Below are positions 9,949 to 14,210 of a stretch of 64,000 nucleotides of DNA, one piece after another (position 1 is the first letter of the stretch; each line of letters begins with the position of its first letter). The notes under the pieces are model-generated. The model made no database searches, was not told where the DNA came from, and worked only from the letters and a program-made list of their open reading frames with translations. The position numbers and the translations under genes were made by a program. Source of the stretch: a virus; the IMG/VR virus record IMGVR_UViG_3300010885_020282, positions 1-64,000 of that record; one strand, written 5' to 3'.

Positions 9949-10451
9949 TGGACATAGAAAAAGTCAAACAAGATATCGAGCATTGGATTGTAAACTTTGT
10001 GGAAGTTCCTCATCCGTCGCTAGGCGGATTTCCACCTTGTCCTTATGCACGGTCAGCACGGCTAAAGCAAAGCTACGAAGTTTTCATTGGCAGCGATCCT
10101 TACTTTGATCTCAAGAATCGTGCTAGACACGGCATGGGCAACAAGGAAGTAATTGTATATGCTTATGATCCTGTAGAATGGCCACATGAGCTATTTGCTG
10201 CCAGTTTAGATCATGCTAACCGAGACTTTTTGTTGGCTGCTGATCTGTTAACACTAGAAGATCACCCCGATGATGTTGAAATAGTCAACGGTATCTGCAT
10301 GAATCAAGGCACTTATGCACTTGCTTTGGTGCAGAGCCTTAGCGATCTTGATGCCAAAGCAAAGCTTATGGCACGAAAAGGATTTTACGATTCATGGCCA
10401 GAAGATTATCTAACAGACTTGTTCCAGCATAGACAGGACCCTCGTTTATGA
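9948..10451 (+). CDS. Hypothetical protein, DUF1415-like
   Basis: HWIVNFVE...PPCPYARSA and a later DHP motif resemble the DUF1415 CPFA/FHP motifs; TAATG-coupled to the previous ORF. Confidence 0.5.
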   Translation: MDIEKVKQDIEHWIVNFVEVPHPSLGGFPPCPYARSARLKQSYEVFIGSDPYFDLKNRARHGMGNKEVIVYAYDPVEWPHELFAASLDHANRDFLLAADLLTLEDHPDDVEIVNGICMNQGTYALALVQSLSDLDAKAKLMARKGFYDSWPEDYLTDLFQHRQDPRL

Positions 10452-10879
10452 CTTATCAGTTTGCTAGAATCAACTTGGAAAAAACCACTTATCAACCCAC
10501 TGTGGATTGGTACTATATCACCAAACCCGATGTTGCTGAACTACAAGACATTTACCGAACGTATTGCATCTACAAACACTTTGCCAGTGTGATGCCGTTG
10601 TTTGACAGCCAGTTCACAGAACCCGGTATAGACCTTATTGGCTACAGAGATCAGGGAGAACTGGTAGCGTTTTCCATGATGAAACGTTACGATGACAAAA
10701 ATTTATTAGCCGCACAATTTGCTTGGAACTATCGTAAACCTAAACTACGTTTGGGTATCTCAAGTTTACAAACAGAATGTGCAATCTACAGAGAGCGTGG
10801 ATTCCAGTACTTGTACCTGGATCAAGCGCACCTGTACAAACAGGACCTTGAAGGTTTTGAAATACTAGGACCACTATAA
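10448..10879 (+). CDS. Aminoacyl-tRNA-protein transferase C-terminal-domain-like protein (ATE_C/Bpt, GNAT fold)
   Basis: ELQDIYRTYCIYKH, GYRDQGELVAFS, LRLGISSLQTEC, GFQYLYL...YK parallel the ATE_C motifs. Confidence 0.6.
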   Translation: MTYQFARINLEKTTYQPTVDWYYITKPDVAELQDIYRTYCIYKHFASVMPLFDSQFTEPGIDLIGYRDQGELVAFSMMKRYDDKNLLAAQFAWNYRKPKLRLGISSLQTECAIYRERGFQYLYLDQAHLYKQDLEGFEILGPL

Positions 10880-10880
10880 C

Positions 10881-11219
10881 ATGGCAGACATTTACACAAT
10901 TTGGGCAGACAAAGAAGGCGACATCTCAGACTTAGACTGGGTCAACGGCATGAAAAGTTTCTTTGAACATTTGAAATTTGAAGGCAAGCTGGAAGACTAT
11001 CGCATCACTAGATGCAAGATGGGATTCCGTTCAATTGCAGACATGCCAGAATGGATGATACTCATGGAGTTCCGGGACATGGCTCAGATGGATCTAGCAT
11101 TCAAACGTGTTGCACCTCTCGCAGGTGAACTAGAAGCCAAACACAAATCATTCAATCAATTTGTTTCAGGCACAATACAACATGCATTGTTCCGTGATTG
11201 GCCTGATACGTTTGTATAA
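10881..11219 (+). CDS. Hypothetical protein, DUF6614-like (dimeric alpha/beta barrel)
   Basis: DIYTIWAD...YRITRCKMGF...PEWMILMEFRDMAQMDLAF...H pattern. Confidence 0.5.
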   Translation: MADIYTIWADKEGDISDLDWVNGMKSFFEHLKFEGKLEDYRITRCKMGFRSIADMPEWMILMEFRDMAQMDLAFKRVAPLAGELEAKHKSFNQFVSGTIQHALFRDWPDTFV

Positions 11220-12283
11220 TGCAACCCATATGCGTGGTTAGTTCGTCCCCGGTTGGATGCACATTCCTTGACTGGAGTTTGCATTTTCTTTCAGGACAAG
11301 ATCAATACTACCATGTTGAACAGCAACAGTGGAGGCCTTTGTCACAATCGCCCCTGAGCAAACTCAATGCACACGGGCATGCTAAAAATCACCCCAATGG
11401 CTTAGATATCACACGTATTTTTGCCATGTCCATTGAGCTTGAACAACAAAAAGCAGATAACCATGACAAACTGTTTTCATTTTATTCCGCGCCTATGACC
11501 ATGCGAATAGCATCCAAGAGAGCAGGAGCAAATAGTTTTAATGAGTTTAGTGACCCAACTACATTAGCACGAGCCCAATCTCTTATCAAGCAGGACTTTG
11601 TTGATATGATACAGCATTGCTTAGATACCAATATCAATGTAGTGTATGTGCAACCGGATAATACTGCAATAACTGCACAGTGGAGATTCCGCAACGATAA
11701 TCGATTGTTTAACAATGGGCTAACTGCTACCCCAGACGAACAACAACAAGAATTTCAAAATGCGTTTTTTAGCAAAAGCCAAACTAGCTGGGCAAGTCAA
11801 GGATTAACAGAAGTATGGGATCAACGAGAACGCATAGCATTGGATTTTAGGCCGTTTGATACAGACAAGTTTTTGCTTGATCAGGATGTTGGGTTTAATA
11901 AACCACACCAACGTATTAGTAGTTTAGATTTGTGGATAAACACAGAGGAAACAACACTAGGGGCGTTGCAACAACTTGGATTACCAATTAACACCCAGAG
12001 ACGCCAGGCCTGGCAATTGATTGCACAACAATGGCAAAAGATGCATTTGCAAAATATCAAATTCTATCATGAAATTGATCATATAGTAAAAGCCATTGTC
12101 AATGGTTGGTATTACAATATAGGCGATCTTGAATTAATACAAGAAGCAATCATACAGCATTGTTTGATTTACAAACACAATCTCAATTTAAAAACGTGGG
12201 GATTATCAAAGTTTCCACGCAACACACAAGACTTACATGTGTTATTGGAAGATAACATTCATACAGTACCAGTTATCTATTAA
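11219..12283 (+). CDS. Hypothetical protein, possibly sulfotransferase/P-loop-like fold
   Basis: 354-aa ORF; N-terminal beta-strand plus SSSPVGCTFL loop; shares motifs with 16719..17519. Confidence 0.55.
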   Translation: MQPICVVSSSPVGCTFLDWSLHFLSGQDQYYHVEQQQWRPLSQSPLSKLNAHGHAKNHPNGLDITRIFAMSIELEQQKADNHDKLFSFYSAPMTMRIASKRAGANSFNEFSDPTTLARAQSLIKQDFVDMIQHCLDTNINVVYVQPDNTAITAQWRFRNDNRLFNNGLTATPDEQQQEFQNAFFSKSQTSWASQGLTEVWDQRERIALDFRPFDTDKFLLDQDVGFNKPHQRISSLDLWINTEETTLGALQQLGLPINTQRRQAWQLIAQQWQKMHLQNIKFYHEIDHIVKAIVNGWYYNIGDLELIQEAIIQHCLIYKHNLNLKTWGLSKFPRNTQDLHVLLEDNIHTVPVIY

Positions 12284-12705
12284 AGATGTACTTCGTACAT
12301 CTGTTCTTCGCTTACGCTCGAACTGTTTCTTGACTTCAGTATCATCTAGATTCTTTGGTCATACTTGCCCGTTGCCGGGCAAGATCTGACATCATCCGAG
12401 TTCGAACAGTCATCTAGTATTAGAGAATTTGTCTTTCTTAGAAGTACAACTGTGAGTGGAATTGTACTTGTTACAAAGACAGCAGAGGCGGTTGTGCGGT
12501 ACCTCTTATCTCAGCCTTGTCTCACAACGGAGCGCAGTTGATCCCATACTAGCGAAATCACTTGCGGACGGGTTGTATCTATTTCACAGAGCCCGAATCA
12601 TTTAGCCTAAGTTAGCTTGTCCTTTGACGCCCAAGTCTGAATATGGTATCTCACATATCCTCAATGGGGTTGGGTCATGTCACCCAACACAGTGTCTATT
12701 AGAAA
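12284..12705 (-). ncRNA. Putative large structured non-coding RNA (alternatively a structured DNA element or origin)
   Basis: Largest non-coding gap in the window; at least six hairpins, GNRA loops on the minus strand, and a 7-bp long-range pairing (12414-12420 with 12546-12552). Confidence 0.55.
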
Positions 12706-13134
12706 TTAAATTTTGTTTAAAATGTGACTGCCATGCACACGTACTTGTATGTGGCCGTTGTAATAATCTGTTGACTCTAATACTTTTCTTGCAAATTGTT
12801 CACGAGCCTCAATGTAACTACATTCTGACTTGCTTTTGCAATAGTAAAGTATTTCTCTGGAGAAGTTTTCGGTGCCTAATTGTTCAGTGTCTTTGGTTAG
12901 CTCAGGGCTTGAGCCCCAATACTCTCGCCAGTCTGAATCGACTTTTGATCGTATTTTCTTTTTCTTCTTCGTGCCGTTCTTTTGTTTTACAGTTTTGTAA
13001 GTTGTTTTTGAGAACTTAGCTAGTTTTTTGCCTATGTACTTGCGACCAGATAGATTATTTGTGATTAAGTAAACAAAGCCCACACATTCATCGGGTAGAG
13101 TCTCCACTGGGGTGTTTTGAAAATACCATGTCAT
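12706..13134 (-). CDS. Small stand-alone GIY-YIG family nuclease (Seg-like)
   Basis: GFVYLITN...RKYIGKK, YWGSS, FSREIL, EAREQF, YYNG; Lys-rich insert KQKNGTKKKKKIR. Confidence 0.85.
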   Translation of the reverse strand: MTWYFQNTPVETLPDECVGFVYLITNNLSGRKYIGKKLAKFSKTTYKTVKQKNGTKKKKKIRSKVDSDWREYWGSSPELTKDTEQLGTENFSREILYYCKSKSECSYIEAREQFARKVLESTDYYNGHIQVRVHGSHILNKI

Positions 13135-13190
13135 GCTGTGTGTTTTTGTTTTGCATTGTAGTTATAGTGTAGTTGCCTGTGTGGTAAAAT

Positions 13191-14210
13191 TTACCATTCT
13201 GTTGTGTGATCAGCATCAGACAAACGTGCGGGTGTACATTTGGTCTGACATTCTAAGCTGTCGAAGCGCAGAAAATCTGTGCTCCAGAACGGATCTTGTA
13301 AAATTTCGTTGAATGTTCGGTGATTGAGATTGAATTGAGATTCTGCCAGTTGATGCCAGTTTGAGTTGTGTTCGTAACGATTGGCAGTCCAACAGCAAGG
13401 GTAAAATTCTCCCCGACTGTTTAAAAACACGCCTTTGTTGCCTATCATACAGATGCCCGAATAGTTGCCTAATTGTGTTGCTCGTTTTTGAAATTCAATT
13501 CGAAGTTCCTGTCCCGGCCTGACTTTTGAGGTCAAGGCAGTTACCACACGTTCATATCTGTGTGCAGACGCCACTAATGCAGAGTCAGAGGGTTCTAGTA
13601 AATCTCTAGTGCCATAGGCACTGGGGTATTTACTACCAAATTTTGTGGATTTTGTTAGCTGAAAACAGTCAAAATTTTGTTCTTTTGCTAGAGTTTTCAT
13701 GTGCTCTAACTGGTGCTGATTGAAGTTAAATGCAATTGAATCGCACACTCTATAAGTGGCAGAGTTGTGTGTAAAAAATTCCTGTATGCCTTGCTGTATT
13801 GATTGCCAGTTGGAATTAACACGGTATTTTTCATTGCTGGCTTGATCCCAGCCATCTAGACTCCAGTGTATTTCGTCTCGATTTGTCAATATGCCTGCTA
13901 GTGACTGCCACCACTGTGGCGTTTTATAGCTGCCGTTTGTTATGATCACAAGTTCTATGCTTGGGCTTGTTTGTTTAAGCCACTCGCAAATTTCTAAAAA
14001 TTCTCGACAGTATATGGGGTCGCCGTCGTTGCCGCAAAATGTAATTTTGCGTATTTGTTGAACAACATCAGCACCCAGTTGATGCTTAAAAAATGCCAAG
14101 GATAGTTGTCGATTTAACAAACTTTCAGGAACCTCAGCACGTGGGCACCTGGGGCACTTTAGTGTGCAGATGCTCGATAACTCAACGTGCCAATGGTCCC
14201 ACTTGATCAT
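13191..14210 (-). CDS. Radical SAM protein with C-terminal Twitch/SPASM-like domain
   Basis: CTLKCPRC, GNDGDP, TNGS, SLDG; C-terminal C...G.FYPCCW...CQTKC. Confidence 0.9.
   Translation of the reverse strand: MIKWDHWHVELSSICTLKCPRCPRAEVPESLLNRQLSLAFFKHQLGADVVQQIRKITFCGNDGDPIYCREFLEICEWLKQTSPSIELVIITNGSYKTPQWWQSLAGILTNRDEIHWSLDGWDQASNEKYRVNSNWQSIQQGIQEFFTHNSATYRVCDSIAFNFNQHQLEHMKTLAKEQNFDCFQLTKSTKFGSKYPSAYGTRDLLEPSDSALVASAHRYERVVTALTSKVRPGQELRIEFQKRATQLGNYSGICMIGNKGVFLNSRGEFYPCCWTANRYEHNSNWHQLAESQFNLNHRTFNEILQDPFWSTDFLRFDSLECQTKCTPARLSDADHTTEW

What the first reader, a model, noticed from the sequence alone, without database searches (positions are those of the whole stretch)
12284..13134. 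~420-nt structured non-coding RNA candidate directly downstream of a minimal GIY-YIG nuclease
Seen: in a genome where genes mostly abut or overlap, a 422-nt gap follows the GIY-YIG stop and is packed with stems. These are AGATGTAC/GTACATCT (12284-12302), CTTGCCCG/CGGGCAAG (12364-12383), TGTCTTT/AAAGACA enclosing AAGTACAA/TTGTACTT (12430-12481), AGAGG/CCTCT (12484-12506) and GTTGGGT/ACCCAAC (12669-12688). A stem at ~12533-12566 has a loop (ATACTAG, 12546-12552) complementary to CTAGTAT (12414-12420), a possible pseudoknot. On the minus strand, the same strand as the nuclease, loops read as GNRA tetraloops (GCAA 12375-12372, GUAA 12315-12312), and there are several UGAGA/UGAAA T-loop-like motifs. 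Three AUGA(C/U)-containing near-repeats occur at 12341, 12391 and 12409. Known: nuclease plus structured RNA pairs exist (HEARO/omegaRNA with IscB). This 142-aa GIY-YIG has a catalytic domain and a Lys-rich insert but no obvious appended DNA-recognition domain. Inference: a phage ribonucleoprotein (possibly an RNA-scaffolded or RNA-guided nuclease) or a new large ncRNA class. A structured replication origin is the main alternative.
Basis: partly seen in the sequence, partly recalled or inferred. Interest (0 to 1): 0.85.

Follow-up and report, generated by a model that had tools for sequence, protein, structure and literature searches.

The report
Knotted twin-word RNA behind phage nuclease
The 422-base gap behind a small nuclease gene of this uncultured giant T4-like lake phage encodes a real, multiply knotted non-coding RNA that is a new variant of the orphan Polynucleobacter-1 RNA family; it does not look like a guide for the nuclease, and its function is unknown.

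Summary
Window 12284-12696 (minus strand) encodes a ~413-nt structured RNA just after the 142-aa GIY-YIG gene. Homologues lie in about 190 uncultured-phage loci, nearly always on the same strand behind the same gene. On 49 close relatives, 66 of 93 proposed base pairs show compensatory double changes. G-U outnumbers A-C about 5:1, which fixes the strand.

It is not a wholly new class. Relatives sharing the window's core and 3' domain (nhmmer E=2e-32) begin with the Rfam motif Polynucleobacter-1 (RF01718; Weinberg 2010, function unknown, noted downstream of a phage-like gene). The window has a different ~100-nt 5' domain that Rfam does not detect. A third 5' type also exists.

The nuclease-RNP idea is poorly supported:
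- Nearly identical GIY-YIG proteins sit beside all three RNA types.
- A PD-(D/E)XK nuclease replaces GIY-YIG in some loci.
- A few RNAs have no neighbouring nuclease.
- No nuclease column tracks the RNA.

The conserved 3' module carries one short word twice. The two copies are identical in 116 of 119 RNAs despite many independent changes, which points to an unidentified trans reader.

Earlier notes of this scan describe the same family on other genomes.

The parts
12706..13134 (-). 142-aa stand-alone GIY-YIG nuclease gene directly upstream of the RNA; a neighbour, not shown to be a partner
   Evidence: Pfam PF19835 SegE_GIY-YIG, E=1.5e-32, residues 3-129. 73-90% identical genes in 80 IMG/VR loci.
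12284..12696 (-). whole structured RNA, about 413 nt (RNA position p = 12706 - window coordinate)
   Evidence: nhmmer homologues in 74 of 80 GIY-YIG loci and about 112 of 120 pattern loci, same strand. Covariation test. G-U 322 cells against A-C 65.
12601..12696 (-). type A 5' domain (P0 12694-12696/12626-12628; P1 12669-12688; P2 12665-12668/12630-12633; P3 12639-12660 with UGAGAUAC loop; P4 12604-12617). This part replaces the Rfam Polynucleobacter-1 domain of type B relatives.
   Evidence: No Rfam hit at E<=10. Helices 1-6 are 81-100% paired with double changes. The type B HMM match starts only at 12610.
12569..12595 (-). P5 hairpin (CGGG/CCCG) with an internal UGAAA-containing loop
   Evidence: Helix 7: 99.5% paired, 3 of 4 pairs with double changes.
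12536..12562 (-). P6 hairpin; its loop (12546-12552, CUAGUAU) is the 5' strand of pseudoknot PK1
   Evidence: Helix 8: 99% paired, 6 of 9 pairs with double changes.
12414..12420 (-). 3' strand of pseudoknot PK1 (AUACUAG), pairing with the P6 loop about 130 nt upstream
   Evidence: Compensatory changes read. Helix 9: 5 of 8 pairs with double changes (some columns misaligned by MAFFT).
12484..12528 (-). H-type pseudoknot core: P7 (12523-12528 with 12491-12496) crosses P8 (12502-12506 with 12484-12488). Includes the near-invariant GGUACCG..CAACCGCC.
   Evidence: Helices 10 and 12: 100% and 99.6% paired. Type B shows GUUGU/ACAAC and GUCGU/ACGAC variants.
12423..12512 (-). P9 (12509-12512 with 12423-12426), closing the junction that holds P8 and the variable hairpin P10 (12430-12481)
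   Evidence: Helix 11: 98% paired, 4 of 4 pairs with double changes. P10 length varies from 14 to about 52 nt.
12387..12412 (-). unit 1: short stem UGAC/GUCA around a loop that holds twin word 1 (CUCGGAUGAU, 12391-12400)
   Evidence: The stem was read by eye and differs in sequence and register between relatives. Twin-word identity. The single-stranded state is not confirmed by ViennaRNA.
12364..12383 (-). P12, a strong 8-bp hairpin with GCAA tetraloop between the two units
   Evidence: Helix 15. CUUGCCCG, UUCACCG and UUUGCCC versions all pair.
12332..12360 (-). unit 2: weak stem around twin word 2 (UCUAGAUGAU, 12341-12350)
   Evidence: The fixed-column test failed (helix 16, 46% paired) and the register differs among relatives. 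Twin-word identity.
12303..12323 (-). P14: variable stem, GA/GAA internal loop, GC/GC, GUAA tetraloop
   Evidence: Helices 17-18: 96.5% and 100% paired, 8 of 8 pairs with double changes.
12284..12302 (-). P15 terminal hairpin, abutting the stop codon of the convergent ORF; probable 3' end or two-way terminator
   Evidence: Helix 19: 93.5% paired, 6 of 7 pairs with double changes. The terminator scan found no canonical U-tract.

Best explanation
The gap encodes a ~413-nt non-coding RNA read from the minus strand, probably as the tail of the transcript that carries the GIY-YIG gene. It is built from modules. The first ~100 nt form an exchangeable 5' domain. Then come a hairpin whose loop forms a long-range pseudoknot, an H-type pseudoknot core, and a conserved 3' module. 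That module has two small hairpin units flanking a strong GNRA hairpin, then a GNRA-capped hairpin and a terminal hairpin.

It belongs to the RNA family whose other branch starts with the Rfam motif Polynucleobacter-1. The window carries a different 5' domain, so it is a new variant of that orphan family.

Inferred mechanism: the RNA acts on its own, in trans, and not as a dedicated guide or scaffold of the neighbouring nuclease. Its 3' module presents the same short word (R-GAU-R-A-D, with shared flanking letters) twice to one reader. The RNA would then work as a bivalent tether or sponge, while the swappable 5' domain adds a lineage-specific function.

Shown: the existence of the RNA, its strand, its fold, its family relationship, and the concerted evolution of the two words. 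The confidence given is for the whole statement; for the shown parts alone it is about 0.9, for the inferred mechanism about 0.3.
For: RNA and strand:
- Fold z = -3.5 on the minus strand and -1.1 on the plus strand.
- 91.3% of cells paired, 66 of 93 pairs with double changes, no shuffle or slid control comes close.
- G-U 322 cells against A-C 65.
- Indels are mostly not multiples of 3, and the median stop-free run on the RNA strand is 38 codons.

Family:
- RF01718 hits 10 of 10 type B relatives at 75-122 bits, and none of type A or C.
- An HMM built from type B only matches window 12281-12610 at E=2e-32.
- The 2010 description places the motif downstream of a phage-like gene.

Independence from the nuclease.

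Twin word:
- Identical triplet of variable letters in 116 of 119 RNAs, with 7 haplotypes.
- At least 22, 14 and 12 changes on a tree built with the words masked. Independent pairs go the same way 9 times and the opposite way 0 times.
- Mutual information equals the full column entropy.
- Type C carries ACAUGAA twice.
- The published Polynucleobacter chromosome copy carries AGCGAAA twice (my reading of the alignment flanks).
- The CUC/UCU difference just 5' of the words is kept, which argues against plain gene conversion.

No sigma-70-like promoter lies between the GIY-YIG gene and the RNA.
Against: - There are no expression data.
No third covarying column exists in the RNA or in the GIY-YIG or DUF6614 genes. 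The word is not enriched in the 64-kb window.
- ViennaRNA does not predict the words to be clearly single-stranded (0.46 and 0.54 against 0.40 elsewhere).
- The closing stems of the two units were read by eye, and unit 2 failed the fixed-column test (46% paired).
- Linkage to a small nuclease gene is very strong. About 100 of 112 RNA loci have GIY-YIG upstream and 3 more have PD-(D/E)XK. A functional tie to DNA-cutting enzymes is therefore not excluded.
- Recombination may inflate the counted numbers of independent changes.
- The window itself is one of the 3 RNAs whose two words differ (GGAUGAU against AGAUGAU).
Confidence: 0.6

Rival explanations
1. The RNA is the partner of the adjacent small nuclease (GIY-YIG, or PD-(D/E)XK where that replaces it). 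It would scaffold or guide the enzyme, with the twin words pairing with two identical DNA sequences.
For: Near-constant adjacency on the same strand. When GIY-YIG is missing, another small nuclease fold takes its place in 3 loci. The GIY-YIG protein is a bare catalytic domain with no DNA-binding domain. Two identical words would suit two identical DNA sites.
Against: Near-identical GIY-YIG proteins sit beside RNA types A, B and C, with at least 22 switches. The same RNA type occurs with unrelated nuclease folds. The RNA occurs with no nuclease beside it in L087, L094 and L180. No GIY-YIG column tracks the twin word. The GIY-YIG family is widespread in cultured Kyanoviridae, while blastn found none of the three RNA types in GenBank phage records, and Melnitz has no room for it. 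No long variable guide-like segment is present, and the word is not enriched in the window's DNA.
Confidence: 0.1
2. It is a cis-acting 3' UTR element: a structured end that terminates convergent transcription and protects the upstream mRNA from 3' exonucleases. It would have no trans function.
For: It always sits at the 3' end of the transcription unit, facing a convergent unit, whichever gene precedes it. The terminal hairpin abuts the convergent stop codon. No promoter of its own was found.
Against: About 400 nt with two pseudoknots, near-invariant core sequence, GNRA loops and concerted twin words is far more than a stabiliser or terminator needs. No canonical terminator was scored. It also occurs in other gene contexts.
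Confidence: 0.1
3. It is an ornate self-assembling RNA like ROOL, GOLLD or OLE. The partly palindromic loops (GGUACC in the core, UCUAGA in unit 2) would mediate homo-oligomer contacts.
For: Its size, phage origin, pseudoknots, GNRA loops and palindromic conserved loops. Such RNAs form RNA-only cages (PMC12286853, found; abstract only read).
Against: No sequence or model match to those families. At about 400 nt it is shorter than my recollection of ROOL and GOLLD (about 580 and 800 nt; from memory, not checked). Kissing contacts predict complementary covariation, not identity between the loops. GGUACC varies in ways that break the palindrome.
Confidence: 0.07
4. It is a DNA-level element, such as a replication origin or iteron array, in which the repeated words are protein-binding sites on DNA.
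For: Direct repeats that change in concert are typical of iterons. The region is intergenic and lies between convergent genes.
Against: Helices tolerate G-U but not A-C (322 against 65 cells), so selection acts on one RNA strand. Compensatory changes keep pairing, not sequence. GC content is 44%, against 43% for the window, so the region is not AT-rich.
Confidence: 0.03
5. It is decayed or unrecognised coding sequence, for example the lost DNA-binding domain of a Seg-type homing endonuclease, or small ORFs.
For: T4 Seg endonucleases carry a C-terminal DNA-binding domain that is absent here (established knowledge). The opposite strand has stop-free runs with a median of 60 codons.
Against: Gap runs are mostly not multiples of 3 (986 against 57). 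There is no conserved ORF. The window's 58-aa + strand ORF spans the segment that most relatives lack. Conservation follows base pairing.
Confidence: 0.01

Closest known systems
Polynucleobacter-1 RNA motif (Rfam RF01718; Weinberg et al. 2010, Genome Biol 11:R31, PMC2864571)
   Same: Same RNA family. Type B relatives of the window's RNA start with this 141-nt motif (75-122 bits). They share with the window the P5/P6 region, both pseudoknots, the core and the whole 3' module (E=2e-32). The habitat matches (fresh water and estuary), as does the position downstream of a small phage-like gene. The function is unknown in both.
   Different: The window lacks the Rfam-defined part. A different ~100-nt 5' domain stands in its place and gives no Rfam hit even at E<=10. 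The Rfam model covers only about a third of the full RNA. The 2010 work had 16 sequences, found none in purified phages, and did not describe the twin words, the alternative 5' domains or the jumbo T4-like phage origin.
HEARO / omega RNA with IscB, and TnpB reRNA (RNA-guided nucleases)
   Same: A structured RNA encoded next to a small nuclease gene on the same strand.
   Different: The nuclease fold differs (GIY-YIG or PD-(D/E)XK, not RuvC/HNH). There is no Rfam HEARO match, no terminal variable guide segment, and no co-variation of RNA and protein. The locus is a fixed genomic position in a T4-like phage, not a transposon end.
GOLLD, ROOL and OLE large ornate RNAs
   Same: Large, pseudoknotted RNAs rich in GNRA loops, often carried by phages, and with no known biochemical function.
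   Different: No homology was detected. This RNA is smaller and has a modular, exchangeable 5' domain. Oligomerisation was not tested.
Multi-loop sponge RNAs such as CsrB/RsmZ (resemblance in mode of action only, from established knowledge)
   Same: The same short motif is displayed more than once in one RNA for one dimeric reader. One of the twin-word variants, GGAUGA, resembles the CsrA GGA-loop motif.
   Different: There are only two copies. Half the family has AGA, or ACA in type C, instead of GGA. The motif co-varies between lineages instead of being fixed. The rest of the RNA is far more elaborate.

Membership tests
Polynucleobacter-1 RNA (Rfam RF01718) | Match to the Rfam covariance model at or above its gathering score (37 bits) | tested here: not met
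   No hit in the window at gathering score or at E<=10 on 12100-12900. Type B relatives score 75-122 bits.
Polynucleobacter-1 RNA (Rfam RF01718) | Homology to the sequence that follows the motif in bona fide members (core pseudoknot and 3' module) | tested here: met
   An HMM built from 71 type B RNAs matches window 12281-12610 at E=2e-32, HMM positions 162-453 of 455. The published alignment flanks show the same core and twin words.
Polynucleobacter-1 RNA (Rfam RF01718) | Location downstream of the GOS11034 / PSSM2_218-like gene | tested here: inconclusive
   The window's RNA and type B RNAs follow the same small GIY-YIG gene. I did not check that GOS11034 or PSSM2_218 is this GIY-YIG family.
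RNA-guided nuclease systems (IscB/TnpB with omega RNA; HEARO) | RuvC-type (and HNH) nuclease encoded beside the RNA | tested here: not met
   The neighbour is Pfam SegE_GIY-YIG, or PDDEXK_15 in L103, L152 and L171.
RNA-guided nuclease systems (IscB/TnpB with omega RNA; HEARO) | Protein and RNA scaffold co-evolve, and a variable guide segment is present | tested here: not met
   At least 22 RNA-type switches on the GIY-YIG tree, with all three types beside 88-90% identical proteins. The highest mutual information between any GIY-YIG column and the twin word is 0.24, out of entropies of 0.86-0.99. No unstructured hypervariable end was seen.
Group I intron | Rfam Intron_gpI match and flanking exons of one interrupted gene | tested here: not met
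   No Rfam hit. The RNA lies between the stops of two convergent genes.
tRNA / tmRNA | Detection by ARAGORN | tested here: not met
   0 genes in the window.
Intrinsic terminator | G+C-rich hairpin followed by a U tract | tested here: not met
   The scan found none in 11900-13400. P15 is followed by UUUAAUA only.

The most novel reading that the evidence does not exclude
The twin words are read by base pairing, with each copy holding one of two identical short sequences on DNA or RNA. The RNA would then be a bivalent bridge that brings two like sites together for the small DNA-cutting enzymes encoded beside it. The swappable 5' domain would select the enzyme or process. That would be a new kind of RNA-directed DNA transaction in giant phages, and in the bacterial islands reported by earlier notes of this scan (not checked here).
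Probability: 0.05. Interest if true: 0.9.

Novelty: new variant of a known kind. Interest (0 to 1): 0.55.

Why it matters
Large, intricately folded RNAs with no known function are rare, and they have repeatedly led to new biochemistry.

This work shows three things about the 2010 orphan motif Polynucleobacter-1:
- It is only the first third of a ~400-480-nt RNA.
- That RNA is carried by hundreds of uncultured giant T4-like freshwater phages.
- Its 5' domain comes in at least three unrelated versions, and the window's version is invisible to Rfam.

The two copies of one short word change together many times. That is a clear, testable signature of a trans-acting reader.

The work also removes an attractive but unsupported idea, that of an RNA-guided GIY-YIG nuclease.

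Tried and rejected
- Rfam at gathering score and at E<=10 on the window: no hit.
- ARAGORN: nothing.
- blastn of type A, B and C RNAs against 50,697 GenBank phage records: no match.
- Scan of prokaryote genomes with a core pattern: 10 hits. Four (L205, L206, L208, L209) carry the RNA, and three of those also phage genes, so they look like phage contigs binned into MAGs. The other six match neither the RNA model nor the neighbouring genes and look like chance.
- Public sequencing runs: no RNA holder listed, only DNA metagenomes from lakes, rivers and estuaries. Expression therefore could not be examined, and read laying was not used.
- Sigma-70 promoter and terminator scan: nothing on the RNA strand near the element.
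- Search for the twin word's partner:
  - inside the RNA: none;
  - in the GIY-YIG gene plus 60 nt upstream, and in the DUF6614 gene: none;
  - as extra copies in the 64-kb window: 24 hits against 19.6 expected.
- ViennaRNA unpaired probabilities for the twin words: no clear result.
- A first automatic helix finder was too noisy to use.
- An RNAalifold run on a MAFFT alignment gave only a partial structure. The final structure was built by hand and then tested.
- No covariance model was built, because the RNA exceeds the practical size limit of the tool.
- Considered from memory and dropped because Rfam gave no support: TPP riboswitch-like AUCUGGAUAAU, a hammerhead-like core in P14, C/D-box k-turns, and anticodon-loop mimicry.

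Full report
**The locus.** The window comes from a 74.7-kb viral record that CheckV estimates at 21% complete. Related contigs reach about 346 kb, so this is a giant T4-like phage. The gap 12284-12705 lies between two convergent genes. One is a 354-aa ORF on the + strand (11219-12283, no significant Pfam family). The other is a 142-aa ORF on the minus strand (12706-13134), which is entirely a SegE-type GIY-YIG domain (E=1.5e-32, residues 3-129). Upstream on the minus strand lie a radical-SAM/SPASM gene and, by my reading, a gp46-type recombination nuclease subunit.

**The observation.** The minus strand folds better than shuffles (z = -3.5) and the plus strand does not (z = -1.1). Rfam and ARAGORN find nothing in the window.

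**Relatives.**
- The GIY-YIG protein recovered 80 IMG/VR loci at 73-90% identity.
- nhmmer found the gap sequence, always on the gene's strand and downstream of it, in 63 of these loci with the single sequence and in 74 with a profile.
- A scan for the near-invariant core pattern gave 120 more loci, of which about 112 hold the RNA.
- The usual gene order is gp46, variable radical-SAM genes, GIY-YIG, RNA, then convergent DUF6614.
- A relative of the 354-aa ORF lies either after the RNA on the other strand (as in the window) or between GIY-YIG and the RNA on the same strand.
- blastn found none of the three RNA types in 50,697 GenBank phage records.
- The hits in prokaryote assemblies that carry the RNA look like phage contigs binned into MAGs.

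**Structure.** I built a secondary structure by hand from the alignments and tested it on 49 type A sequences (alignment A1).
- 91.3% of 4419 cells form standard pairs, against 80.3% in shuffles.
- 66 of 93 pairs show changes on both sides.
- The covariation score is 0.324, against 0.132 for shuffles (0 of 500 reach it) and 0.035-0.079 when partners are slid by 1-3 columns.
- Well supported: P0-P6, P9, P10, P12, P14 and P15, the H-type core pseudoknot (P7 crossing P8), and the long-range pseudoknot between the P6 loop and a strand about 130 nt downstream.
- The closing stem of unit 2 failed the fixed-column test (46% paired) because its register differs between relatives.
- The stem of unit 1 was read by eye only.
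- Paired cells contain 322 G-U but only 65 A-C, so selection acts on the minus-strand RNA.
- Indels are mostly not multiples of three and no ORF is conserved.

**Family.**
- The RNAs fall into at least three types. They share the 3' module, and types A and B also share the core. Their 5' parts differ.
- Rfam RF01718, Polynucleobacter-1, matches the first ~140 nt of every type B RNA tested (10 of 10, 75-122 bits). It matches no type A or type C RNA.
- A profile made only from type B RNAs matches the window at 12281-12610 with E=2e-32.
- The window's RNA is therefore a homologue in which the Rfam-defined domain is replaced by another ~100-nt domain (12601-12696).
- Weinberg et al. 2010 (PMC2864571) listed the motif from Burkholderiales and fresh-water or estuary samples. 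They had 16 sequences. They noted that the 3' half is not always detected and that most copies lie downstream of GOS11034 genes with possible homology to cyanophage P-SSM2 locus PSSM2_218. They found none in purified phages and proposed no function.

**Relation to the nuclease.** Adjacency is very frequent but not specific.
- The window's nearest GIY-YIG relatives (88-90% identical) are followed by type A, B and C RNAs. The RNA type changes at least 22 times on the protein tree.
- In L103, L152 and L171 a PF24608 PD-(D/E)XK nuclease stands where GIY-YIG usually is (E=1e-24 to 1e-26). L171 still has a type A RNA with the usual twin words.
- In L087, L094 and L180 the RNA lies in other contexts, with no nuclease gene beside it.
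- No column of the GIY-YIG gene, including 60 nt upstream, tracks the RNA's variable word.
- Homologous GIY-YIG genes are common in cultured Kyanoviridae (499 records). Phage Melnitz has only a 148-nt gap behind its copy.
- My inference: the small GIY-YIG and PD-(D/E)XK proteins are interchangeable housekeeping structure-specific nucleases of the recombination module, not RNA-dependent enzymes.

**The twin words.**
- The 3' module holds two units about 55 nt apart. In the window the words are CUCGGAUGAU (12391-12400) and UCUAGAUGAU (12341-12350).
- Across 119 type A and B RNAs, the three variable letters of the word are the same in both copies in 116 cases, with seven haplotypes.
- On a tree built with the words masked, each position changes at least 12-22 times. 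Independent pairs go the same way 9 times and the opposite way 0 times.
- Type C RNAs carry ACAUGAA twice.
- The Polynucleobacter chromosomal copy printed in the 2010 supplement carries AGCGAAA twice.
- The letters just 5' of the word (CUC against UCU) stay different, so simple homogenisation is unlikely.
- I found no third covarying site in the RNA, in the neighbouring genes or in the window.
- The window is one of the three exceptions, differing at one letter.
- This pattern of identity, not complementarity, points to one trans reader for both copies. I could not identify it.

**Conclusion.** The element is a real, large, doubly pseudoknotted RNA. It is a new 5'-domain variant of the orphan Polynucleobacter-1 family, most likely made as the 3' end of the nuclease operon. 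It probably acts in trans through its twin words. The RNA-guided nuclease reading is not excluded but has little support. Earlier notes of this scan describe the same family and the same twin words on many other genomes. I reached the Rfam link and the twin-word result before reading those notes, and I do not count them as evidence.

Noticed in passing
L103:3893-4423, L152:335-853, L171:9422-9925 (all minus strand): At the position where GIY-YIG normally sits (after gp46, before the RNA), three loci carry a PF24608 'phage putative PDDEXK endonuclease' instead. This looks like non-orthologous replacement of one small nuclease by another. It suggests both are recombination or repair nucleases of the gp46/47 module.
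   Followed up: partly
window 11219-12283 (+); L021:614-1573, L022:3443-4402, L058:3438-4421, L079:4293-5291: The 354-aa ORF with no significant Pfam family is a mobile neighbour. In the window and several loci it converges on the RNA. In others a 30-33% identical relative lies on the RNA's strand between GIY-YIG and the RNA.
   Followed up: partly
L039, L033, L025, L016, L055: about 250 nt between the GIY-YIG stop and the type C RNA: Some type C loci have an extra conserved stretch that reads like a small Cys-rich (zinc-ribbon-like) ORF between the nuclease gene and the RNA.
   Followed up: no
window 13191-14210 (-) and relatives: The number and kind of radical-SAM/SPASM genes between gp46 and GIY-YIG vary from none to two among close relatives. 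Identities to the window's copy range from 22% to 63%.
   Followed up: no
window 10448-10879 (+): The 143-aa ORF gives a weak, sub-threshold Pfam hit to ATE_C, the arginyl-tRNA-protein transferase C-terminal domain (E=2e-4, 22.3 bits against a cutoff of 25).
   Followed up: no
window 12281-12345 (-), RNA positions 361-426: In the window the second twin word supplies an AUG that opens a 21-codon frame running through P14 and P15 to a UAA. Relatives with GAUAAU lack the AUG, so it is probably chance.
   Followed up: partly
L206 and L208 (NZ_JBBAKG010000003.1 and NZ_JBBAKG010000001.1, 'Haliscomenobacter sp.' MAG, contigs of 148 and 183 kb): Two large contigs of one bacterial MAG carry the GIY-YIG-RNA-DUF6614 arrangement (L208 also gp46). 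They are probably phage contigs binned with the bacterium, which may or may not hint at a host.
   Followed up: no
window 12491-12506 (-) and relatives: The near-invariant core loop contains the palindrome GGUACC, and ACCGGU in most type A RNAs. Some type B RNAs carry GGUACA, GGUAUC or GGUAAC, so a simple self-kissing role is doubtful.
   Followed up: partly
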